Source of the DNA: a virus | Taxonomy: Duplodnaviria; Heunggongvirae; Uroviricota; Caudoviricetes | Direction: 5' to 3' (one strand) | DNA length: 12,726 nt | IMG/VR virus record: IMGVR_UViG_3300014846_000084 | Shown here: one piece after another, positions 1-12,726 of the stretch | Layout of the letters: each line of letters opens with the position of its first letter | How positions within the stretch are numbered: position 1 is the first letter of the stretch | Program-made: the position numbers and the translations under genes | Notes under the pieces: generated by a model | Databases searched by the model: none | The model's input: only the letters and a program-made list of their open reading frames with translations | What the model was told of the DNA's origin: nothing

Positions 1-1230
1 ATGAGCAGAGCACTTAACAAACTGAGCGATACACAGCTGAGGAAAATCAACGGCACACCCGCCCAAAAAACAGCCTTTCTTAATGACGGTGGAAACCTGA
101 GCGTCAGGCATTCAACCAGCGGCCTTTTAACCTGGTATTTCACCTACAGGGCCGGAACGGGAAGGGGAGCACGACCGGAACGGATTAAGCTGGGAAATTA
201 TCCTGATCTGAGTCTGAAAGCTGCCAGGGAAAAAGCGGCACAGTGTCGCGCTTGGCTTGCTGAGGGGAAAAATCCACGTCATGAGATGAATTACACCGTA
301 CAGAAAGCGTTAAAGCCCGTAACGGTTGGCGATGCGCTTACCTACTGGCTTGAGTCTTACGTAAAGGAAAACCGCGTGGATTATGCCGCCCTGAAAAAGC
401 GCCTTAATAATCACGTAATACAGCACATTGGTGCTATGCCGCTGGATAAATGCGAGCTACGGCACTGGCTGGCCTGTTTTGACCAGGTGGCAAAGCGAAC
501 GCCTGTTACTGCCGGATTCTTGCTACAGACGTGCAAACAGGCGCTTAAGTTCTGCCGGAGGCGGCGCTATGCAATCAGCAACGTTCTTGATGATATGAGT
601 GTGGCGGACGTTGGGAAAAAACCGGATATAAGCGAGCGTGTCTTAAGCACCAAAGAACTTGGCGAATTATTGCAGGCACTGGACAAAAAAATATTTTCCC
701 CTTACTACGTCGCACTAATCCGCCTCCTGATTGTTTTTGGATGCCGGACGGTAGAACTGAGGTTATCGGAGATCAGCGAGTGGGATTTTACCGAAATGCT
801 CTGGACCGTGCCGAAAGAACACAGCAAAACGAAGGTGGCAATATTCCGGCCCATACCGGAAGCAATACTGCCGTTCGTCACGCAGCTGGTGGAGCAGAAC
901 AGGCACACGGGCTTATTGCTGGGGGAAGTGAAACAGGAAACAAGCGTGTCGCAGTACGGCAGATTAGCGCACAGGAGGCTAAAACACCCTCACTGGTCAC
1001 TGCATGACATCCGGCGCACCTTTACAACGATGCTGAACGATTTAGGCGTGGATCCTCACGTCGTGGAGCAGCTTACAGGTCATCAGATGCCAGGGATGCA
1101 ACGAGTCTATAACCATTCCCGTTATCTGGATGCGAAACGTGACGCGCTGGATATGTGGACGGAGCGGTTAGGGATACTGGCGGGAACACATGAAAACGTA
1201 ACCACATTGCCAATAGCCAGAGAAATATAA
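1..1230 (+). CDS. int: Tyrosine site-specific integrase, P4-like family (409 aa)
   Basis: Full-length ORF from the track. C-terminal catalytic motifs are readable in the translation: R in GCRTVELRL, H-x-x-R in SLHDIRRTF, Y in QRVYNHSRY. N-terminal region resembles the arm-binding domain of P4-type integrases. Upstream start context is outside the window. Confidence 0.9.
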   Translation: MSRALNKLSDTQLRKINGTPAQKTAFLNDGGNLSVRHSTSGLLTWYFTYRAGTGRGARPERIKLGNYPDLSLKAAREKAAQCRAWLAEGKNPRHEMNYTVQKALKPVTVGDALTYWLESYVKENRVDYAALKKRLNNHVIQHIGAMPLDKCELRHWLACFDQVAKRTPVTAGFLLQTCKQALKFCRRRRYAISNVLDDMSVADVGKKPDISERVLSTKELGELLQALDKKIFSPYYVALIRLLIVFGCRTVELRLSEISEWDFTEMLWTVPKEHSKTKVAIFRPIPEAILPFVTQLVEQNRHTGLLLGEVKQETSVSQYGRLAHRRLKHPHWSLHDIRRTFTTMLNDLGVDPHVVEQLTGHQMPGMQRVYNHSRYLDAKRDALDMWTERLGILAGTHENVTTLPIAREI

Positions 1231-1257
1231 TTTTTTTTGCGATTTTTCAGGATGCGG

Positions 1258-1315
1258 ACAACGTGAAACAACGAGACACAACGACGAACAACAAGGAACA
1301 AAATGGAACAACGGG
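1258..1315. repeat. Tandem array of six phased 10-bp repeats (consensus about ACGnGGAACA, ACAAC core every 10 bp) immediately 3' of int
   Basis: ACAAC at 1258, 1268, 1278, 1288, 1308 and the variant ACAAA at 1298, exactly 10 bp apart. Top strand is almost entirely A/C/G. Confidence 0.6.
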
Positions 1316-1595
1316 TTAAAAATCAGCCATCGTAATAACCATTTGATTTTTATAGGTGTACTGTTTTTTTATACACTGGCGAATCACTCTTAAAAATATG
1401 TAAAAAAGGCGTAAAAGTAAAATTTTATGCCTTTGCATCATAATGAATTAAAAGAGTTTTTATTCTCATTCCCCCTGCTTCTGTAAAACGACCGCCGCCA
1501 GTGTTTGCCATTCCACAAACACCCTGACACAATCCGACACAACCCAACCCAATAATCCACCCAATGACTCTTTAAGAAACAACAAAGGGGGAATT

Positions 1596-1784
1596 GTGTT
1601 AAGCACAGATCGCTTTATACGTGAAAAAGAATGTCAGCAACTTACAGGCCTGAGCCGCTCATGTCGGTACCGCCTGGAAAAAGCCGGACAATTCCCATCA
1701 CGGCGTAAGCTGGGCGGTCGTTCCGTTGGCTGGTCTTTATCCGAAGTTCTGGCATGGAAGGACAGCTGCGAGGCAGTTCACTAA
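1596..1784 (+). CDS. alpA: AlpA-family (Vis/excisionase-like) HTH transcriptional regulator, 62 aa, GTG start
   Basis: Translation LTGLSRSCRYRLEKAGQFP...GWSLSEVLAWK matches the AlpA/MerR-like winged HTH pattern. Strong SD (AAAGGGGGA) 5 to 8 nt upstream of the GTG at 1596. Confidence 0.85.
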   Translation: MLSTDRFIREKECQQLTGLSRSCRYRLEKAGQFPSRRKLGGRSVGWSLSEVLAWKDSCEAVH

Positions 1785-1836
1785 TCAGGCTGGCGGCACA
1801 CAGCCGCCACCCATCCACTAATACAGAGATCTAACC

Positions 1837-3039
1837 ATGAATACTGGATATTCTCCCGAACAAGGGCGGGGCTTCGTTCGTCCTGAAAAACAGAATCTGC
1901 AAAATTTTGCCGAAATTATTCCGGTTATTTCCGGCCTTACTGGCGGGAGTGAAACCAATATTGTTAACGCCAGAGCGTTGCAGATGTTTGATGATAAAAA
2001 GGGAGTAAATTTAACTTACACCCCTGACGGCAATCAGAATATGAGCATTATCTCTGAGTCAGGTTTCTACAAACTAATAAAAACAAAAAGCGCCCCGTTG
2101 CCGGAGCGCCTTTGTGAACAATTAACCTACTGCGCAAAAAATGAATCTGAGCAGTGGGATTATATCAACCATGTGGAGAAGCGCCACAATTGCCGAATAA
2201 CGGGCAAAACAAAGGCCACCCGCTACGGTGGCCCCTCGACACAAGCTACACGTTATCCCCAACGCATGAGCATTGCCAACAATGCCACATTTGCGGCTGG
2301 TGGGCAATGCAATCAGTCTGGTTCAGTTCGTTGCCATACCTGCAATGAGCGCTTTTCCCTGTACTCTTTAAGGAATTGCTCAAGGGCAAAAGCACATGGC
2401 GCGAATCTTTCTGATTCATGCTCTATCTTTCTGCGCCGTCTTTTCCGTGCCGGTGATAATGTTTTGGTCAATTCTTTATCGGTCATTGTGTTGTCCTGCA
2501 TAGCAATGCGCCGTAATACCTTACACCACGGCGCTGATGGTGATTACTCTGGTTCTTTGGTCTTGCGGCGCTGGAGTTCTTCACGTGCGACAGTGACGAG
2601 CTGCCCGATCTCCTCGGCGGCTTTGATTCCGAGTTTTTCCACCTGCGCCAGTGCATCGAGCGAAGAAACTAGGGGATTTTCTCCACTTCCTTCTGCCTGG
2701 CGCCGGGCGATCTCACCGCGTACAGCCGTAACTATAAAATTCGCTTTAGTTTCCCCTGGCTGTAGGGATGCCTCAATGCCACTCACTACTTCATGTGGAA
2801 ATCTGGCATTCAGTTGCTGTGACTTATTGTTAACAGAACTCCTGGACATGTTTGCACCTCCCATTAATAACGGGATGCAGTGTAATACAAAAGTGAATAC
2901 CAAAAAAGACTTGAAATGGTATTCACCTAAATGTAATGTGAATACCACAAGTGCTGATACATGCAATTCAGCAATTGAAACGACGAAGCCCCGCACTGTT
3001 GGAGCAGTAACGGGGCTTCTAACCAACAACGTAAACTAG
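1837..3039 (+). CDS. Hypothetical ORF with a Bro-N/KilA-N-like segment in the first ~110 aa. The 3' boundary is uncertain: the open frame runs 400 codons, but the distal two thirds look like non-coding antisense of the minus-strand regulator gene. Possible pseudogene or mis-extended ORF.
   Basis: N-terminal translation contains KGVNLTYTPDGNQNMSIISESGFYKLIKTKS, which resembles the conserved Bro-N core. From about residue 150 the composition turns S/C/R-rich and overlaps a well-supported gene on the opposite strand. Weak SD before the ATG at 1837. Confidence 0.3.
   Translation: MNTGYSPEQGRGFVRPEKQNLQNFAEIIPVISGLTGGSETNIVNARALQMFDDKKGVNLTYTPDGNQNMSIISESGFYKLIKTKSAPLPERLCEQLTYCAKNESEQWDYINHVEKRHNCRITGKTKATRYGGPSTQATRYPQRMSIANNATFAAGGQCNQSGSVRCHTCNERFSLYSLRNCSRAKAHGANLSDSCSIFLRRLFRAGDNVLVNSLSVIVLSCIAMRRNTLHHGADGDYSGSLVLRRWSSSRATVTSCPISSAALIPSFSTCASASSEETRGFSPLPSAWRRAISPRTAVTIKFALVSPGCRDASMPLTTSCGNLAFSCCDLLLTELLDMFAPPINNGMQCNTKVNTKKDLKWYSPKCNVNTTSADTCNSAIETTKPRTVGAVTGLLTNNVN
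2313..2486 (-). CDS. Possible small basic protein (57 aa, MTDKELTKTLSPARKRRRRK...), downstream of the RHH gene on the minus strand
   Basis: ORF in the track (2313..2501) trimmed to the second ATG, which has an AGGA about 8 nt upstream. Composition is protein-like but there is no recognisable family. Overlaps the open + frame of the preceding feature. Confidence 0.2.
   Translation of the reverse strand: MTDKELTKTLSPARKRRRRKIEHESERFAPCAFALEQFLKEYREKRSLQVWQRTEPD
2544..2849 (-). CDS. Ribbon-helix-helix (Arc/MetJ-like) DNA-binding regulator, about 101 aa; candidate island repressor
   Basis: Track ORF 2544..3029 trimmed to the internal ATG at 2849, which has a strong SD (GGGAGGTG) 5 nt upstream. 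N-terminal segment LNARFPHEVVSGIEASLQPGETKANFIVTAVRGEI fits an RHH beta-strand/helix pattern. Transcribed divergently from the downstream operon. Confidence 0.7.
   Translation of the reverse strand: MSRSSVNNKSQQLNARFPHEVVSGIEASLQPGETKANFIVTAVRGEIARRQAEGSGENPLVSSLDALAQVEKLGIKAAEEIGQLVTVAREELQRRKTKEPE
2893..2947. promoter_or_regulatory. Operator-like triple repeat GTGAATACCA (direct 2893-2902, inverted 2918-2927, direct 2938-2947) in the divergent intergenic region between the RHH gene and the 3048 operon
   Basis: Three exact copies of a 10-mer in alternating orientation, within about 55 bp, lying between two divergent start codons (2849 minus, 3048 plus). Confidence 0.5.
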
Positions 3040-3934: not shown

Positions 3935-4234
3935 ATGAAACTTAAATATTCTGGCTTAACTGCCAGTGGCAACACTCACCCTAAATTTACGCGCGGTGAT
4001 ATTTACCGCGACCAGTACGGCGGCACGGTAATGATTAAGGGCGTGGAGGAACGTCGCGTAACTTACCGCCGTGAAGGCTACGAATATGATTGCGTGATGC
4101 CTGTTTATCAGTTCGACCGTGATTTTTCTCTTGTGCAGGCCGTACCGCGTAACGTGCCCACCAGCAGGGAGAAAGCACGCGCCAATATTCAGAAGATGAA
4201 AACCATGATTAACGGATTCAGGGGTAAAAAATGA
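3935..4234 (+). CDS. Hypothetical protein (99 aa), translationally coupled to the primase gene (ATGA overlap)
   Basis: Track ORF with GGAGA SD upstream. Its stop overlaps the primase ATG at 4231. Confidence 0.6.
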   Translation: MKLKYSGLTASGNTHPKFTRGDIYRDQYGGTVMIKGVEERRVTYRREGYEYDCVMPVYQFDRDFSLVQAVPRNVPTSREKARANIQKMKTMINGFRGKK

Positions 4235-5997: not shown

Positions 5998-6225
5998 GCT
6001 GTCTACCCTGTCTACCTGAGTAAAGAAAAATACATTTAATTCAGTACATTAACTTAGGTAGACAGCCTTTTTTCACTGTCTACCTACTATCTACCCTCTC
6101 TACCTGATTTTACCTGAATCAGACAGGGAGGTAGATACGGGGTAGATAGTGGATAAAAGCACTCTACCCTACTGAAAGCCGCGCCATTACTGGCATGGTG
6201 GCCAGTAAGGTAGATAAGGTAGACA
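5998..6225. repeat. Iteron array, candidate origin of replication: about 12 copies of GGTAGA(C/T)A / T(G)TCTACC in both orientations flanking an AT-rich spacer
   Basis: CTGTCTACC at 5999-6007, 6008-6016 and 6076-6084; GGTAGACAG at 6057-6065; TCTACC at 6090 and 6099; GGTAGATA at 6130, 6141 and 6209; GGTAGACA at 6218. AT-rich stretch at 6018-6056. Confidence 0.6.
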
Positions 6226-6273
6226 AGGGGAGGCACAACTCAAAACTTTTTAAACGAGGGGGTAAAAATAAAA

Positions 6274-6853: not shown

Positions 6854-7015
6854 ATGGCTATCACAGAACGCGAGGCAAGCATCATTAAGGCCATTGGCGA
6901 GGAAACAAGAGACACCATAGCGCCATTGATGGAAAAGATCGCAGAGCTTGAGACACGAATAAACAAGCTGAGTAATGAAGTTGAAGGCCTGATCTCGTTA
7001 CTCGGTGAGCAATGA
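6854..7015 (+). CDS. Small predicted coiled-coil protein (53 aa, MAITEREASIIKAIGEETRDTIAPLMEKIAELETRINKLSNEVEGLISLLGEQ); absent from the ORF track, which appears to omit ORFs under 60 aa
   Basis: Translated by hand. ATG lies 4 nt after the upstream stop, with a GAGG about 9 nt upstream. Heptad-like charged/hydrophobic pattern. Confidence 0.4.
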   Translation: MAITEREASIIKAIGEETRDTIAPLMEKIAELETRINKLSNEVEGLISLLGEQ

Positions 7016-7143
7016 CATGGGGGGGAGTGTTCCGGCCGGAAAGTCGATCTCCCTGGACACCGCCCCCCGTCTCATTCGTAGAAAATTTTGCTTTTCAAAA
7101 AAGTTACACGAAAAGTTACACCCCCTCAAAACGAGGTTTTTGC

Positions 7144-7632
7144 ATGGCATTAACGACCAAAAAAAAGCGGTTTGCTGATGCGTTATCAAGGGGCGCAAAT
7201 CCCACGGAAGCCGCTATACATGCGGGATACAGCGAAAAGACCGCAAGGGTTAAAGGCTGGCAGCTATCCAACGATCCTGAGGTGAAAAAGTATCTTAAGG
7301 CTGTAACTCCTGATGTAACTTTTCAGGTTACAAAACCGAAAAAAGTTACAAAGAAAGTTACCGAAAAAGTTACACCGGAACGGGCATCAATTAACACCAT
7401 TGAGATGATGGATAACGGCCTACCCGACCCCATCAAAGCAATGGGCAGGATACTGATTGACAACATGGACACAGATCCAAAACTGGCTTTAGATGCCGCG
7501 TTTAAGCTGGCCCAGTTCACCCACCGCAAGATCGGCAGCATTGGGAAAAAAGAGGTTAAAAAACTCAATGCCGCTAGTGTCTCCTCAAATCGGTTCCCCA
7601 TCCCTAAGCCACCAACAGGCTTAAAACACTGA
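7144..7632 (+). CDS. terS: Terminase small subunit (TerS, Terminase_2-like), 162 aa
   Basis: Track ORF 7012..7632 trimmed to the internal ATG at 7144, which has a GAGG SD. N-terminus FADALSRGANPTEAAIHAGYSEKTARVKGWQLSNDPEV matches the conserved TerS HTH signature (AGYS..TA). The upstream 44 codons of the track ORF are GC-rich, structured, non-coding-looking sequence. Confidence 0.8.
   Translation: MALTTKKKRFADALSRGANPTEAAIHAGYSEKTARVKGWQLSNDPEVKKYLKAVTPDVTFQVTKPKKVTKKVTEKVTPERASINTIEMMDNGLPDPIKAMGRILIDNMDTDPKLALDAAFKLAQFTHRKIGSIGKKEVKKLNAASVSSNRFPIPKPPTGLKH
7303..7375. repeat. Cluster of six GTTAC/GTAAC pentamer-containing repeats spaced about 12 bp apart inside terS (encoding the repetitive KVT linker); candidate pac/TerS recognition site
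   Basis: GTAAC at 7303 and 7315; GTTAC at 7328, 7345, 7357 and 7369. Two further AAAAGTTACAC copies lie just upstream of the terS start (GTTACAC at 7103-7109 and 7115-7121). Confidence 0.45.
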
Positions 7633-8805: not shown

Positions 8806-9087
8806 ATGACAGAAGCCGAAATACTGGGATTAATCCGCCGCGTTGCCGGAATCAGCAAGCAGGCCGACGAACAGGCCACGCAGCCGGACAGCGTGACCGC
8901 CGAAAATTATGTGCGTGTTGTTGCTGAGGTGATGCGCCGTGATGGTATCCAGCTTAATGATGTGGATATGCGCAACATACGGATCCGCGTTCTTGAAATG
9001 CTGGCCTACAATCGCCGCGTTGAACTGTATCGGGAGAAAGAAAAAATTACGTACCACTGGAAGAAGCCGGAGCGGTTACGGCGTTAA
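8806..9087 (+). CDS. Hypothetical protein (93 aa), last gene of the island
   Basis: Track ORF. AGGTGGAG SD at 8796-8803. Balanced, protein-like composition. Confidence 0.55.
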   Translation: MTEAEILGLIRRVAGISKQADEQATQPDSVTAENYVRVVAEVMRRDGIQLNDVDMRNIRIRVLEMLAYNRRVELYREKEKITYHWKKPERLRR

Positions 9088-9093
9088 CGAGTA

Positions 9094-9138
9094 GTGACAT
9101 ACCGTGACGGAGAGTGACAACCAGTGACACAACGTGAC
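9094..9138. repeat. Tandem array of five phased 10-bp repeats (GTGAC every 10 bp; consensus nnnGTGACAn) at the island terminus
   Basis: GTGAC at 9094, 9104, 9114, 9124 and 9134. Contains the octamer GACACAAC (9126-9133), which also occurs at 1275-1282 and 1536-1543. Confidence 0.6.
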
Positions 9139-9390
9139 AAAAAGACGGTATTTAAACAGGGGGAGTATTTAATACCCCTCCCACCAGCCTGATTAACATT
9201 TAACCGGAAAAAAAATCCGGTACCATGATGGCAGACGCTAGGGCAATCATTGCTGAAATTGCACACTTTTTAAGCAAATCATTTTAGTTATACGTTTGGT
9301 TATACGATTTAAAAGTTGAATCAAGCATATTTATTAAAATCATGTAGTTACACGCTAAATTAAACTACTCTCGTGCCAAAAATCCCAAGA

Positions 9391-9480: not shown

Positions 9481-12072
9481 TCAGAACGTCCAGACCACAC
9501 CCGCCTGAGTATTCCACGGCGATTCTACCCCTGCGCCATTGCCATAGCTGACTGACAAATGACCGCTTAACGTCGGGGTAAACGATGACCTTATACCAGC
9601 CTGATAAACGCCACTGGTTCCAGCCACATCATTATTAAATTTGCCATCGTCATTAACTTTCACCTGGTTAGAATCGGCGTATTCCTGACGCACGGCCGCT
9701 TTCAGCCAGGGTTCCAGCGTCGTACCGTTTTGCAGGTCCATGTGATAGCTTACCGCCGTTCCCGCTTCAGCGCGTAATATCCGGGTATTTCCCACATCCG
9801 CGCGCATGCCGTTTGATAACGTGTAGTCCTGACCATCTGTGGTAAAGCCGGTAAAGGCCAGATAGGGTCTAACACTCCACAATCCGTCAACCCAACGGAA
9901 CCCGCTCTCAACATGAGCACCCGCGCCGTTACTATTGTAATCGCCAAACGCTGTTGCCCCATTACTCATCTTGCCATGGATGGTGTTGGCAAAACGGTCA
10001 ACTTTCACCACCCCATCAACATAGGCACCGTTCTGATGCTCCCAACCGGCATAAGCCCCCAGGGTATAGCTATCGATATTACCTTTGCCGCCGCGATCAA
10101 AACCAATATCAGAATGAGAGTAACCAAAGATCAAGCCGCGAATTGTACTGCTTTCTTCACGGGAGAAACGGCTATCGATACCGAGCGTCAGGCCCGTCAA
10201 TGTTTGCTCAAAACCAGCTCCCGCATCAGTGGTCACGTTGTTGCGGGTGTTAATTGCCGAACTCCACATCGCCGTATCGTAACTAACGCCTTTTACGCTA
10301 CCAAGACGCTCACGCACGGTGTCCAGTTCTGCATCAAATACCAGCGGTTGTGCGGCCGCCATATTCAGCACATCAGTGGTTGAAGGGGTAATTTGCGCGC
10401 GATTCTCTGCCAGACTCCAGCTATGGTTGCCATTATCCAGCAAGGTATATTCATACGTACCGATATCAACAACGCCTCCGGCATTGCCCAACGTAAATGC
10501 AGCATCACCGCCGCCCGTTGTTACCAGTGTAAGGCTATCTCCTGCTGCCGGGCTGGCACCGGTGTCCGTCACGAATATTTTGAAATCACCTGTTGCCTGA
10601 CCGGTGACGTTGAGCTGATCGCTCTGATGATTAGCCATATCGGTACGCATATAAAAATTGCCGTTTCCCGACAGGGTATTGGTGGTCAACGTAATGAAAT
10701 TTTCCGCACTTGCCGTCACTGATGAACGAGTCACTGGCTCATCCATCATAATCACATTTGCGTCAGACATCGCAAGGTTGGCTAAGTTGAGGAGGGTGTT
10801 TTGGTTCGTCGTAGTGATATCGGCAATGATGGTCCATACGCTATTTTCGAGCGAAACGTCCGCTTTGCTGGTATCCACGGCACCATTCGTTCTAAAAGAA
10901 GCGCCCTCAGAAACCACTACCTTACCCACCAACATTGCGGGTGCATAATTTATTTGCGGCTTCATGACCTCAAGAATGCCATCATTCCCTCTGACTGAAA
11001 CGTTAACCATTGTGCCAGCCCAGACGTTAGCGCGGCCATTGTTGATAACCATATTTTCAGAGATGGCTTTTGAGGAATACGTGATACTTCCATTCTGATA
11101 TGATCGACCGAGATCATATACCGCATTTGCCTGCACTTTCGTACCAGTATCCTTTCCCAGCGATTGCATAGTGGCATGCTTATCAAGGATAGTATCAATG
11201 GCCTGCGTGTCCTCCATAACAATGAGCCCGGAACCATCATCCAGTTCATAATTTTTTGACACACCATCTTTTATACTAAATTGGCCTTTACTGTTTGGAC
11301 CACTCACTTCCAGCGCATTCGTTGAGACAATTAATTTTCCGCCTGCTTTTTTATCAACGCCAGTTACAGTCCCGCCATCCATAACCTCCAGTAAGCCGCC
11401 ACTATCTACAGTGGTATTATAAGCGAAGTCATTTTCTTCAACTCGCAAACTTCCGCCGTTTTCCAACAACATATTATTAGCAATACCATTCTTGATATCG
11501 AACTGACCGAGACGGTTTGTTCCGAATACCTCCATGGCCCGCGTGGTTGTTTTAATAGCACCGCCTGCTTTCTGATCTACCGCAAATGCAAATCCCCCCT
11601 CTTTAACCTCCAGTAGTCCTCCCTTTTCGATAGCGACAAAGACGGCCCCCCCATCTTTTTCAACGATTAAGCGCCCGCCTTTAATCGTGGTATCATTCGC
11701 TGCGCCATAAACCTGTAGCACACCATTATTGAGCGTAGTCTGGTTTGCCGCGCCACCCATTTGAACAATTTGATAACCGTCATTTAATACTGAGTATTCT
11801 GCGGCGCCATTCATTTCAATGTACTGATACCCTCCGTTAATTTCAGTATTATTACTTACACCAAATTCTTTTATATGCTGTTCTCCGCCAGGATTGATTT
11901 TCGTATTATTGGCGGTCCCATAAACCAGCTGGATATCTTTTTCCAGGACAACACCATCAACTGTCTCACCATACTCAACAGTTGATGCCAATGCTATGGG
12001 TGAATATAACGCTGTAGCCACCAGAACAGATATTGCGGAACGACAAAGAGAAACAGAACCAGATTGATGCAT
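9481..12072 (-). CDS. AIDA-I-type (type Va) autotransporter adhesin, 863 aa, with signal peptide, repeat-rich passenger and C-terminal beta-barrel translocator
   Basis: N-terminal signal-peptide-like segment (LCRSAISVLVATALYSPIALAST). Passenger region has recurring glycine-rich repeats (e.g. NTKINPGGEQ, NTEINGGYQY, IVEKDGGAVF, LEVKEGGFAF). C-terminal about 280 aa has alternating aromatic/hydrophobic beta-strand pattern and ends ...AGVVWTF, typical of autotransporter beta-domains. Confidence 0.88.
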   Translation of the reverse strand: MHQSGSVSLCRSAISVLVATALYSPIALASTVEYGETVDGVVLEKDIQLVYGTANNTKINPGGEQHIKEFGVSNNTEINGGYQYIEMNGAAEYSVLNDGYQIVQMGGAANQTTLNNGVLQVYGAANDTTIKGGRLIVEKDGGAVFVAIEKGGLLEVKEGGFAFAVDQKAGGAIKTTTRAMEVFGTNRLGQFDIKNGIANNMLLENGGSLRVEENDFAYNTTVDSGGLLEVMDGGTVTGVDKKAGGKLIVSTNALEVSGPNSKGQFSIKDGVSKNYELDDGSGLIVMEDTQAIDTILDKHATMQSLGKDTGTKVQANAVYDLGRSYQNGSITYSSKAISENMVINNGRANVWAGTMVNVSVRGNDGILEVMKPQINYAPAMLVGKVVVSEGASFRTNGAVDTSKADVSLENSVWTIIADITTTNQNTLLNLANLAMSDANVIMMDEPVTRSSVTASAENFITLTTNTLSGNGNFYMRTDMANHQSDQLNVTGQATGDFKIFVTDTGASPAAGDSLTLVTTGGGDAAFTLGNAGGVVDIGTYEYTLLDNGNHSWSLAENRAQITPSTTDVLNMAAAQPLVFDAELDTVRERLGSVKGVSYDTAMWSSAINTRNNVTTDAGAGFEQTLTGLTLGIDSRFSREESSTIRGLIFGYSHSDIGFDRGGKGNIDSYTLGAYAGWEHQNGAYVDGVVKVDRFANTIHGKMSNGATAFGDYNSNGAGAHVESGFRWVDGLWSVRPYLAFTGFTTDGQDYTLSNGMRADVGNTRILRAEAGTAVSYHMDLQNGTTLEPWLKAAVRQEYADSNQVKVNDDGKFNNDVAGTSGVYQAGIRSSFTPTLSGHLSVSYGNGAGVESPWNTQAGVVWTF

Positions 12073-12269: not shown

Positions 12270-12726
12270 TAGACTGGCCCCCTGAATCTCCAGACAACCA
12301 ATATCACTTAAATAAGTGATAGTCTTAATACTAGTTTTTAGACTAGTCATTGGAGAACAGATGATTGATGTCTTAGGGCCGGAGAAACGCAGACGGCGTA
12401 CCACACAGGAAAAGATCGCAATTGTTCAGCAGAGCTTTGAACCGGGGATGACGGTCTCCCTCGTTGCCCGGCAACATGGTGTAGCAGCCAGCCAGTTATT
12501 TCTCTGGCGTAAGCAATACCAGGAAGGAAGTCTTACTGCTGTCGCCGCCGGAGAACAGGTTGTTCCTGCCTCTGAACTTGCTGCCGCCATGAAGCAGATT
12601 AAAGAACTCCAGCGCCTGCTCGGCAAGAAAACGATGGAAAATGAACTCCTCAAAGAAGCCGTTGAATATGGACGGGCAAAAAAGTGGATAAAGCACGCGC
12701 CCTTATTGCCCGGGGATGGGGAGTAA
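12270..12726 (+). mobile_element. IS2 (IS3 family) insertion sequence, left end only; IRL begins about 12270 and the element continues beyond the window
   Basis: Sequence from about 12270 (TAGACTGGCCCCCTGAATCTCCAGACAACC...) matches my recollection of the IS2 left inverted repeat, and the downstream ORF matches IS2 orfA. Recognised from memory, not from a search. Confidence 0.8.
12361..12726 (+). CDS. insC: IS2 transposase OrfA (InsC-like HTH protein), 121 aa
   Basis: Track ORF 12316..12726 trimmed to the ATG at 12361, which has a GGAGAACAG SD-like sequence upstream. Translation [40 protein letters not shown]... is the IS2/IS3-family OrfA as I recall it. Confidence 0.88.

What the first reader, a model, noticed from the sequence alone, without database searches (positions are those of the whole stretch)
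1258..1315. Helically phased 10-bp tandem array immediately after int
Six ACAAC cores recur at exactly 10-bp intervals (one is the variant ACAAA), placing them on one face of the helix. Such arrays are typical binding platforms for excisionase or Cox/Vis/AlpA-type proteins, which bind tandem direct repeats. The position between int and alpA suggests a regulatory or recombination-directionality role.
Basis: partly seen in the sequence, partly recalled or inferred. Interest (0 to 1): 0.55.

Follow-up and report, generated by a model that had tools for sequence, protein, structure and literature searches.

The report
Candidate AlpA operator array in a PICI
Six phased 10-bp repeats just after the integrase gene of an E. 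coli phage satellite (almost identical to the model island EcCICFT073) use the same short DNA unit found at both ends of the island and at the alpA promoter. They are most likely a docking platform for the island's own excisionase-like master regulator AlpA, a familiar type of control element whose sites I found unmapped for this family in the literature I could search.

Summary
ACAA(C) recurs six times at exactly 10 bp (1258-1317). No 4-mer chain reached this length in 300 dinucleotide shuffles (maximum 4).

Across 51 distinct homologous int-alpA spacers, the ACAA cores are conserved (0.25 bit entropy) while the linkers drift (0.71 bit). The array stays 195-200 bp from the alpA -35 hexamer in 49 of the 51.

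Window 1-2574 is 99.5% identical to EcCICFT073, the prototype Gram-negative PICI, and the array is identical.

A weight matrix trained only on these arrays finds three other phased clusters in the complete island: the attL arm, the attR arm (each beside a doubled 12-mer of the kind annotated in P4 as attP arm repeats) and the alpA promoter. Phage P4, CP4-57 and KplE1 share this att layout. In KplE1 the phased units are footprinted sites of the excisionase TorI.

The published AlpA-activated reporter fragment spans window 1198-1653, so it contains the array.

Best reading (about 0.65): a distal operator for AlpA, which acts as both excision factor and autoregulator. Binding is inferred, not shown. 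This is a new member of a known kind and of moderate interest.

The parts
1..1230 (+). int, a P4-type tyrosine integrase of 409 aa
   Evidence: Pfam Arm-DNA-bind_3, Phage_int_M (below its cut-off) and Phage_integrase. The region is 99.5% identical in DNA to EcCICFT073. The 100%-matching island L001 and CFT073 carry the same Int accession, WP_000085269.1.
1258..1317 (.). Distal array: six 10-bp units ACAAC/ACAAA plus a 5-nt linker. On the minus strand they read CGTTGTTCCA TTTTGTTCCT TGTTGTTCGT CGTTGTGTCT CGTTGTTTCA CGTTGTCCGC.
   Evidence: Core versus linker entropy is 0.25 versus 0.71 bit across 51 distinct homologues. The array is identical in CFT073.
1336..1348 (-). IHF-consensus match AATCAAATGGTTA, 20 bp downstream of the array
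   Evidence: This is the only exact WATCAANNNNTTR match in the 12.7-kb window on either strand; 0.68 are expected in the whole window. Partly conserved in alignment A1. Weak evidence on its own.
1405..1434 (+). Conserved A/U-rich 12-bp hairpin between the array and the alpA promoter; a possible terminator of int read-through, usable on both strands
   Evidence: RNA fold gives -16.6 kcal/mol, z -4.2, and 0 of 200 shuffles fold as well. The stem is kept in homologues: GGCGT/ATGCC in the window and GGCAT/ATGCC in L004, L005 and L153.
1505..1533 (+). Promoter-like site of alpA: TTGCCA, 17 nt, CACAAT
   Evidence: The only sigma-70-like hit in 1100-1900. TTGCCA followed 17 nt later by (A/C)ACAAT is present in all 51 distinct spacers.
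1516..1565 (.). Promoter-proximal units in the same orientation as the distal array (CAAACACCCT GACACAATCC GACACAACCC, then two degenerate CCAAT-type units). They overlap the -10 hexamer and the start of the transcript.
   Evidence: TRF reports period 10 at 1526-1553. The weight-matrix 3-unit score is 18.7, against a null maximum of 18.4 in 100 shuffles. Unit-sized (10-bp) indels occur among homologues.
1596..1784 (+). alpA, 62 aa, an excisionase-type winged-helix protein
   Evidence: PF05930, E 3e-18. AlphaFold2 model pLDDT 87; best PDB matches are the GIsul2 excisionase 8c3t (TM 0.83/0.90) and the RdfS excisionase 8dgl, with Pukovnik Xis and TorI as weaker matches.

Best explanation
The array is a distal operator for AlpA, the island's own excisionase-type winged-helix protein. 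It is one of four phased clusters of the same about 10-bp unit (TTGTTnC). The other three are in the attL arm, in the attR arm and over the alpA promoter.

Inferred mechanism: AlpA protomers bind head to tail, one per helical turn, and form a short DNA-bending filament on the six units. This filament sits at a fixed 196-197 bp from the -35 hexamer, with an IHF-like site next to it. It cooperates with the promoter-proximal units, probably by looping, to set the threshold and gain of the known AlpA autoregulation of PalpA. The att-arm copies let the same protein direct Int towards excision.

Shown here: the repeat, its conservation, the four-site distribution, the att-site architecture shared with P4, CP4-57 and KplE1, and the fold of AlpA. 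Taken from the literature: AlpA activates a reporter fragment that contains the array, and AlpA over-expression triggers Int-dependent excision. Inferred: that AlpA is the protein that binds, the looping, and the sign of the effect.
For: 1. Non-random and constrained: a chain of 6 against a null maximum of 4. Core entropy is 0.25 bit against 0.71 bit for linkers, with the minimum at phase 0. Arrays have 5-6 units in 45 of 51 distinct spacers; the other 6 keep 3 units in strict register. Copy-number changes are whole 10-bp units. The distance from the last unit to the -35 hexamer is 195-200 bp in 49 of 51 spacers and 208 bp in 2.

2. Same unit at the recombination sites: a weight matrix trained only on post-int arrays scores the attL arm 32.6, the attR arm 29.6 and the alpA promoter region 18.7 in the 12.9-kb CFT073 locus. 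The null maximum over 100 shuffles has median 5.9 and highest value 18.4. TTGT chains of at least 3 units occur only at these sites in the 28.5 kb of L001. The island borders were fixed using the empty K-12 site.

3. Architecture: in each arm the units abut a doubled 12-mer, GGTGTAGTTAAT twice. P4's annotated attP arm repeats are doubled 12-mers flanking the core, with TCCG units phased at 10 bp beside the int-side doublet. CP4-57 has the same layout. In KplE1 the phased GTTCG/GATCG/GTCCG units are the mapped TorI sites next to the IntS arm sites (PMC2951348), and IntS has the same Pfam architecture as the window Int.

4. Family 2 (Int 77%, AlpA 58% identical to the window's): the doublet is the same and the core of the Int arm-binding domain is identical, but the invariant part of the unit shifts from TTGT to TCG, and the putative AlpA recognition helix differs.

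5. AlpA has an excisionase-type fold. Recombination directionality factors bind tandem repeats spaced one helical turn apart, and several also regulate promoters (PMC7498355; RdfS binds attP and its own promoter, PMC11963761).

6. Window 1-2574 is 99.5% identical to EcCICFT073. The AlpA-activated reporter pJP2038 corresponds to window 1198-1653 (PMC6092414).
Against: - I found no binding experiment for any PICI AlpA.
- AlpA did not change expression of a Pint reporter that appears to contain the attL-arm units (PMC6092414; primer mapping is approximate). TorI and Vis, in contrast, repress their int promoters.
- The proximal units overlap the -10 hexamer and the early transcript, a position expected for repression, yet AlpA is reported to activate.
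- The distal array lies about 190 bp upstream of the -35 hexamer, far for a simple activator.
- The related island L160 has the att-arm units but no int-alpA spacer array, so the distal array is not obligatory for this kind of element.
- In family 2 the array directly after int has a different motif (AATATCG). The AlpA-type units (CGAACA, four copies) lie further downstream.
Confidence: 0.65

Rival explanations
1. The units are arm-type sites for the N-terminal Arm-DNA-bind_3 domain of Int. The post-int and promoter copies would let Int, rather than AlpA, bridge or regulate the int-alpA region.
For: The same units lie in both att arms. Lambda-type arm sites can also be tandem repeats at about 10 bp (established knowledge). 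Int carries an arm-binding domain. AlpA had no effect on Pint despite the attL-arm units (PMC6092414).
Against: - The doubled 12-mers beside the units match, in form and position, P4's annotated attP arm repeats and the doubled motif at -81/+132 in helper-embedded PICIs (PMC10111431). These are the better arm-site candidates.
- In KplE1, whose Int has the same domain architecture, the 5-bp phased units are excisionase sites, not Int sites.
- AlpA alone, without Int, activates the fragment that carries the arrays (PMC6092414).
- The array is 1.45 kb from the crossover site.
- Family 2 has the same doublet and an identical core of the Int arm-binding domain, but shifted units.
Confidence: 0.12
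2. The array is the docking site for a helper-phage-encoded DNA-binding protein that switches on alpA, as P2 Cox does through three phased 10-bp boxes upstream of the P4 vis gene.
For: P4 carries three tandem 10-bp repeats (GCTTTAAGTG and variants, annotated as 'ori type 2 repeat') upstream of vis. From my own knowledge they match the Cox-box consensus; the Saha 1989 paper could be cited through PMC7498355 but not read. Helper phages induce alpA transcription through an unidentified factor (PMC6092414). Excisionase cross-talk between a PICI and its helper is reported (PMC11773190).
Against: The same unit sits in both att arms of the island, which points to the island's own recombination machinery. 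The helpers lambda and phi80 have unrelated excisionases (my own knowledge). The lambda Xis sites do not score with the unit matrix; the best phased score in the attP region is -1.5. AlpA alone is enough to activate the fragment.
Confidence: 0.08
3. Another protein binds the array (a different island-encoded regulator or a host nucleoid protein), or the array acts in RNA as an unstructured CA-rich tract in the int 3' untranslated region.
For: The array lies between the int stop codon and the first strong hairpin (1405-1434), so it is probably transcribed with int. The RNA is unstructured, z +1.4. Two GGA motifs are present.
Against: The units recur in the opposite orientation in the att arms and at the promoter, which fits recognition of double-stranded DNA. 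There is no Rfam match. The conservation pattern is one core per helical turn. No other island-encoded DNA-binding protein is conserved across all carriers of the spacer.
Confidence: 0.1
4. The array is a neutral tandem repeat produced by replication slippage and has no function.
For: Unit-sized copy-number variation exists; L050 has one extra unit.
Against: The repeats are imperfect, with conserved cores and free linkers, across 51 variants whose spacers are 74-100% identical and occur in 859 genomes. The distance to the promoter is fixed. The unit recurs at three other sites.
Confidence: 0.05

Closest known systems
TorI sites in KplE1 (CPS-53) attL (Panis et al., PMC2951348)
   Same: 5-bp cores (GTTCG, GATCG, GTCCG) repeat every 10 bp. 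They are bound cooperatively by a small winged-helix excisionase and sit next to Int arm-type sites just upstream of an integrase with the same Pfam architecture. Family-2 PICI units (TTGTTCG) contain the TorI core.
   Different: TorI sites are only in attL and overlap Pint, which TorI represses. The array in question lies downstream of int, is inverted, has six units and is 1.45 kb from the crossover site. The island has copies in both att arms. TorI and AlpA are only 26% identical.
Phage 186 Apl, P2 Cox and Mesorhizobium RdfS: dual-purpose directionality factors
   Same: One small protein binds phased direct repeats both at att and at a promoter region. Apl has seven operators at pR-pL. RdfS binds attP and its own promoter (PMC7498355, PMC11963761). 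RdfS is the second-best structural match of the AlpA model.
   Different: Apl and Cox repress face-to-face promoters, whereas AlpA is reported to activate its own promoter. RdfS sites show no consensus. Here one cluster is about 190 bp upstream of the promoter and another lies over it.
Satellite phage P4: Vis, and the Cox boxes upstream of vis
   Same: Vis is annotated in P4 as 'excisionase and transcriptional regulator'. It is reported to bind between int and the attP core; this comes from my recollection of Cali et al. 2004, which I did not read here. P4 shows doubled 12-mer arm repeats with TCCG units phased at 10 bp beside them, and three 10-bp tandem repeats upstream of vis.
   Different: In P4, vis and int are separated by attP. 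The repeats upstream of vis serve the helper's Cox protein. P4 has phased units on the int side of the core only. The unit sequence is different.
EcCICFT073 PalpA autoregulation (Fillol-Salom 2018, PMC6092414)
   Same: It is the same DNA. Window 1-2574 is 99.5% identical and the array is identical. The AlpA-activated reporter spans window 1198-1653.
   Different: The paper did not map any AlpA site or mention the repeats. It treats AlpA as an activator, not as an excisionase.

Membership tests
Operator array of a recombination directionality factor (excisionase-type winged helix) | Three or more direct repeats spaced one helical turn apart | tested here: met
   Six units at exactly 10 bp; 5-6 units in most homologues.
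Operator array of a recombination directionality factor (excisionase-type winged helix) | A cognate small excisionase-type winged-helix protein encoded in the same element | tested here: met
   alpA at 1596-1784 matches PF05930. The model fold matches the GIsul2 excisionase and RdfS best, and more weakly Pukovnik Xis and TorI.
Operator array of a recombination directionality factor (excisionase-type winged helix) | The same repeat unit present in an att arm next to Int arm-type sites | tested here: met
   Weight-matrix scores are 32.6 (attL arm) and 29.6 (attR arm) in CFT073, each next to the doubled GGTGTAGTTAAT. The same holds in family 2. The att arms lie outside the window, so this was tested in L001 and L155, whose int-alpA region is 99.5-100% identical to the window.
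Operator array of a recombination directionality factor (excisionase-type winged helix) | Direct, cooperative binding and bending by the protein (EMSA or footprint) | not testable with these tools
   No binding data for a PICI AlpA in the searchable literature.
Operator array of a recombination directionality factor (excisionase-type winged helix) | Mutating the array changes promoter activity or excision | not testable with these tools
   Only indirect evidence: the AlpA-responsive fragment 1198-1653 includes the array.
Integrase arm-type sites | Located within the att arms, within roughly 250 bp of the crossover core | tested here: not met
   The array is about 1.45 kb from the core GGACATATTT, which lies about 180 bp upstream of int.
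Integrase arm-type sites | Sequence matches the element's arm-site motif (doubled 12-mers, as annotated in P4) | tested here: not met
   No GGTGTAGTYAAT-like site with 2 or fewer mismatches occurs in 1231-1595. The units differ from the doublet.
Replication-origin iterons | Clustered next to the initiator/primase gene with an AT-rich unwinding region | tested here: not met
   The origin-like repeats lie after the primase gene at 5999-6228. The array is 3 kb upstream of the primase gene and its unit is unrelated.
Helper-excisionase-responsive satellite promoter (P2 Cox boxes upstream of P4 vis) | Repeat unit matches the binding consensus of the helper phage's excisionase | tested here: inconclusive
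   The lambda Xis sites do not resemble the unit; the best phased score is -1.5. phi80 and the CFT073 prophage were not tested.

The most novel reading that the evidence does not exclude
The six-unit array is the cis element through which the still-unidentified helper-phage signal turns on alpA. A helper-encoded excisionase-like or other DNA-binding protein would nucleate on, or displace something from, the array. This repeats the P2 Cox / P4 logic in Gram-negative PICIs, while AlpA uses the same units at the att arms. A variant of this reading: the inverted arrays flanking int (attL arm and post-int) are bridged by AlpA into a 1.4-kb loop that couples int expression to excision.
Probability: 0.1. 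Interest if true: 0.8.

Novelty: new member of a known kind. Interest (0 to 1): 0.45.

Why it matters
AlpA is the master switch of Gram-negative phage-inducible chromosomal islands. I found no mapped AlpA DNA targets in the literature I could search, and how helper phages trigger alpA was still open in the latest work I found.

The window carries the regulatory region of the model island EcCICFT073. The result therefore gives a concrete and cheaply testable map of four candidate AlpA sites: the distal array, the promoter-proximal units and both att arms. It predicts that AlpA is both the excision factor and the autoregulator. It also predicts that the doubled 12-mers, not the phased units, are the Int arm sites.

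The same att layout is visible in P4, CP4-57 and KplE1, which suggests a common grammar for att sites of P4-type integrases. The principle itself (small excisionases binding phased repeats at att sites and at promoters) is well established, so this is an extension rather than a surprise.

Tried and rejected
- **Genome-contig scan with AlpA**: only 3 loci, of little use. The IMG/VR scans supplied the diversity instead.
- **The search for homologous proteins**: only 19 hits because of word-index limits. Two contexts were fetched. L160 confirmed the att-arm units but has no spacer array. L162 (AlpA 64% identical) showed no clear phased array.
- **Resemblance to lambda Xis sites**: considered because X1 contains TGTTGTGT. 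Rejected, since the weight-matrix phased score in the attP region is -1.5.
- **RNA-level readings**: no Rfam family reached its threshold in the window. The array folds no better than shuffled sequence, z +1.4.
- **A promoter immediately downstream of the array**: the consensus scan found none on either strand in 1100-1900 except the alpA one.
- **A GGTGTAC motif at about 1354**, similar to the arm doublet: it falls in a stretch of variable columns across homologues, so I dropped it.
- **Family-2 post-int array (AATATCG type)**: it does not match the family-2 att-arm units. It is a different and unexplained element, not a covarying copy as I first thought.
- **Saha 1989** (P2 Cox sites on P4) and **Cali 2004** (P4 Vis boxes): Saha 1989 is not held in the library and Cali 2004 did not turn up in my searches. 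Statements about them rest on citations in PMC7498355 and on my own knowledge.
- **Pint reporter primers**: they map only approximately, probably because the supplement text is garbled.

Full report
**1. The observation**

The window begins at the start codon of a P4-type tyrosine integrase (1-1230; Arm-DNA-bind_3 plus Phage_integrase). A 365-bp spacer follows, then a 62-aa AlpA-family gene (1596-1784; PF05930, E 3e-18). ACAAC starts at 1258, 1268, 1278, 1288 and 1308, and ACAAA at 1298, an exact 10-bp period. Tandem Repeats Finder reports the array.

In 300 dinucleotide-preserving shuffles of the window, the longest chain of any 4-mer at periods 8-13 was 2-4 units. The observed chain is 6.

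**2. What the element is**

Downstream of alpA lie a DUF4222 gene, a D5-type primase, a small-terminase-like gene, a capsid-family gene, an AIDA-type autotransporter on the minus strand and an IS fragment. This is a Gram-negative phage-inducible chromosomal island (PICI).

Window 1-2574 is 99.5% identical to EcCICFT073 of E. coli CFT073, the prototype of these islands. The spacer differs at one base (1471) and the array is identical. Homologous int-alpA spacers at 74-100% identity occur in 859 of 5426 complete E. coli genomes.

**3. Conservation**

From IMG/VR and E. coli loci I collected 73 distinct int-alpA spacers. In 51 of them AlpA is at least 90% identical to the window's; I call these family 1.

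- Arrays have 5-6 units in 45 of the 51. The other 6 keep 3 units in strict register.
- One variant has an extra unit inserted in phase.
- In an alignment of the 51, the ACAA core columns have a mean entropy of 0.25 bit and the other array columns 0.71 bit. The minimum falls at phase 0 of ten possible phases. This is a one-core-per-helical-turn constraint with free linkers.
- The fuller unit is G-n-A-ACAA, which reads TTGTTnC on the minus strand.
- The promoter-like site TTGCCA, 17 nt, (A/C)ACAAT is present in all 51. The last distal unit lies 195-200 bp from TTGCCA in 49 of them and 208 bp away in 2.

**4. The key finding: the unit is not confined to this array**

The window lacks the island ends, so I used L001 (100% identical to the window over 1150-1650) and CFT073 (L155).

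The empty site in K-12 between roxA and phoQ places the crossover at GGACATATTT. Both flanking regions are therefore internal to the island.

- Upstream of int: CCTTGTTCCA GCTTGTTTCA CGTTGTAGCC CTTTGTGCAA, then GGTGTAGTTAAT GGTGTAGTTAAT, then the int ATG.
- At the right end: TCTTGTGTCT ATTTGTTCCA CGTTGTTTCA, the same linker, then GGTGTAGTTAAT GGTGTAGTCAAT.

These 10-mers are essentially the reverse complements of the units in the post-int array.

TTGT chains of at least 3 units at about 10 bp occur at exactly three places in the 28.5 kb of L001: the attL arm, the attR arm and the post-int array.

A weight matrix trained only on post-int arrays was scored as three phased units across both strands of the 12.9-kb CFT073 locus:

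| Site | Score |
|---|---|
| Post-int array (self) | 33.9 |
| attL arm | 32.6 |
| attR arm | 29.6 |
| alpA promoter region (window 1516-1545) | 18.7 |
| Second attL cluster | 11.0 |
| Null maximum, 100 shuffles | median 5.9, highest 18.4 |

The promoter-proximal units start at the -10 hexamer and run downstream. Homologues differ there by one 10-bp unit.

**5. Which protein binds?**

The att layout can be read against three better-studied systems.

- **P4.** The record annotates the attP arm repeats as doubled 12-mers (GGGGGCAYnnnn twice) on each side of the core. Next to the int-side doublet I see TCCTG, TTCCG, GTCCG and ATCCG at 10-bp steps, in the interval where Vis is reported to bind (the Vis binding interval is from my own knowledge).
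- **CP4-57**, the source of the name AlpA. It has GTCCC, GTCCG and ATCCG units, then a doubled TAGGCCCAnnGA, upstream of intA.
- **KplE1.** IntS has the same Pfam architecture as the window Int. The phased GTTCG, GATCG and GTCCG cores are the experimentally mapped sites of the excisionase TorI, and the Int arm-type sites lie between them and intS (PMC2951348; sequence).
- **Helper-embedded PICIs.** A doubled motif at -81 and +132 from the attP centre was proposed as the Int arm site (PMC10111431). The EcCICFT073 doublets sit at comparable distances, by my count.

By this shared grammar the doubled 12-mers are the Int arm sites and the phased TTGTTnC units are sites for the excisionase-type protein, here AlpA.

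Four further points agree with this.

- The AlpA model (pLDDT 87) best matches the GIsul2 excisionase (TM 0.83/0.90) and the RdfS excisionase, with weaker matches to Pukovnik Xis and TorI. AlpA and TorI align at 26% identity.
- Such proteins bind head to tail on repeats one helical turn apart, and several also act at promoters (PMC7498355). RdfS binds both attP and its own promoter (PMC11963761).
- In family 2 (Int 77%, AlpA 58% identical) the doublet and the core of the Int arm-binding domain are unchanged. The invariant part of the unit shifts from TTGT to TCG (TTGTTCG), and the putative AlpA recognition helix differs (LSRSC becomes VCRTT).
- In family 2 an inverted CGAACA array of four units lies upstream of alpA.

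**6. Link to experiments**

Fillol-Salom et al. 2018 showed four things (PMC6092414):

- AlpA expressed from pBAD activates a PalpA-lacZ fusion.
- Helper phages induce alpA transcription through an unknown factor.
- AlpA over-expression causes Int-dependent excision and replication.
- AlpA does not change Pint-lacZ.

Their primers place the PalpA fragment at window 1198-1653, so it contains both the distal array and the proximal units. I found no mapping of AlpA sites in PICIs in the searchable literature.

**7. Proposed mechanism and its weak points**

I propose that AlpA forms a six-protomer filament on 1258-1317. Several features suggest that it cooperates with the proximal units by looping:

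- its fixed distance to the promoter;
- the adjacent IHF-consensus site, which is the only exact match in the window;
- the conserved hairpin at 1405-1434, which may stop int read-through.

Looping would give a cooperative, thresholded positive feedback on alpA. The att-arm copies would serve excision.

Weak points:

- The proximal units overlap the -10 hexamer, a repressor-like position.
- The distal array is far upstream of the promoter.
- AlpA had no effect on a Pint reporter that appears to include the attL units.
- A related island (L160) has the att-arm units but no spacer array.
- Binding by AlpA has not been tested.

**8. Rivals**

- **Int arm-type sites.** Disfavoured by the P4, KplE1 and helper-embedded-PICI comparisons, and because AlpA alone activates the reporter.
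- **A helper-factor docking site, as with P2 Cox upstream of P4 vis**. This is the most novel reading still open. The att-arm copies argue against it, and the lambda Xis sites do not match the unit.
- **An RNA element in the int 3' untranslated region.** There is no structure and no Rfam match, and the orientation differs between sites.
- **Neutral slippage.** Contradicted.

**9. Verdict**

The feature is real and conserved. It is very probably a protein-binding array, most likely for AlpA. It belongs to the well-known class of operator arrays for excision-directionality factors. I found no earlier description of such sites for PICIs, and here they lie in the model island.

The novelty class is a new member of a known kind. 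Interest is moderate (0.45). The main reason is that it yields a direct, testable site map for the master regulator of Gram-negative PICIs and a handle on the unsolved induction step.

Noticed in passing
window 9094-9143 (+): A second exactly phased array: GTGAC five times at 10-bp steps (GTGACataccGTGACggagaGTGACaaccaGTGACacaacGTGAC). It lies in the non-coding stretch right after the last conserved island ORF (8806-9087). It is as improbable as the int-proximal array: the null maximum for a 5-mer chain was 3. In EcCICFT073 and L001 the same position instead carries GTTGATATTTTCG-type repeats. It may be a packaging or regulatory site.
   Followed up: partly
L001 12740-12830 and 23740-23810; L155 1339-1420 and 12558-12640: Both att arms of EcCICFT073-type islands contain a duplicated module of about 65 bp: 3-4 phased TTGT units, then GTGCAACGATC, then a doubled 12-mer GGTGTAGTYAAT. 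P4 has phased units on the int side of the core only. Excisionase-type sites on both arms would be unusual.
   Followed up: yes
L135 1660-1700; L157 16098-16140 (family-2 islands): In islands whose AlpA is 56-59% identical to the window's, the position just after int holds a hairpin followed by a different 10-bp phased array (GAATAAATCG TAGAATATCG GAAAATATCT GCAAATATCT, or an AGTTCG variant). It matches neither the att-arm units nor the window's array. GATATT-like words recur in the right-end non-coding region of the same island. Its binding partner is unknown.
   Followed up: partly
window 1405-1434: A conserved A/U-rich 12-bp hairpin (-16.6 kcal/mol, z -4.2). On the minus strand it is followed by a run of six T, and in most homologues the stem is perfect on both strands. 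It could terminate a leftward transcript from the alpA promoter region as well as int read-through.
   Followed up: partly
window 7099-7121, 7339-7374 and 9283-9311: 12-bp repeats of the AAAAGTTACACG type. Two clusters lie inside the small-terminase-like ORF (7012-7632) and one lies in the non-coding region after the GTGAC array. This is reminiscent of pac sites embedded in terS genes.
   Followed up: no
window 5999-6228: Short 9-11-bp repeats (CTGTCTACC, ACTATCTACCT, and TAAGGTAGA in inverted orientation) directly after the primase gene. They are probably the island's replication-origin iterons.
   Followed up: no
window 9481-12072 (-) and 12316-12726 (+): Cargo and decay: an 863-aa AIDA/pertactin-type autotransporter adhesin, followed by an IS transposase ORF (HTH_Tnp_1) at the window's end. 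The island's attR end is absent from the window.
   Followed up: partly
L158 (P4) 3966-4010; L164 (CP4-57) 540-600: P4 and CP4-57 both show (N)TCCG units at 10- or 20-bp steps immediately beside the doubled 12-mer arm repeats upstream of int. Together with KplE1 this suggests a general att-site grammar for P4-type integrases paired with AlpA/Vis/TorI-type excisionases.
   Followed up: partly
L160 2144-3001: In a related island at a roxA-like site (AlpA 68% identical), a 257-aa ORF of unknown function fills the int-alpA interval. There is no spacer array, although the attL arm keeps four phased TTGTTCG-type units and the doublet.
   Followed up: partly
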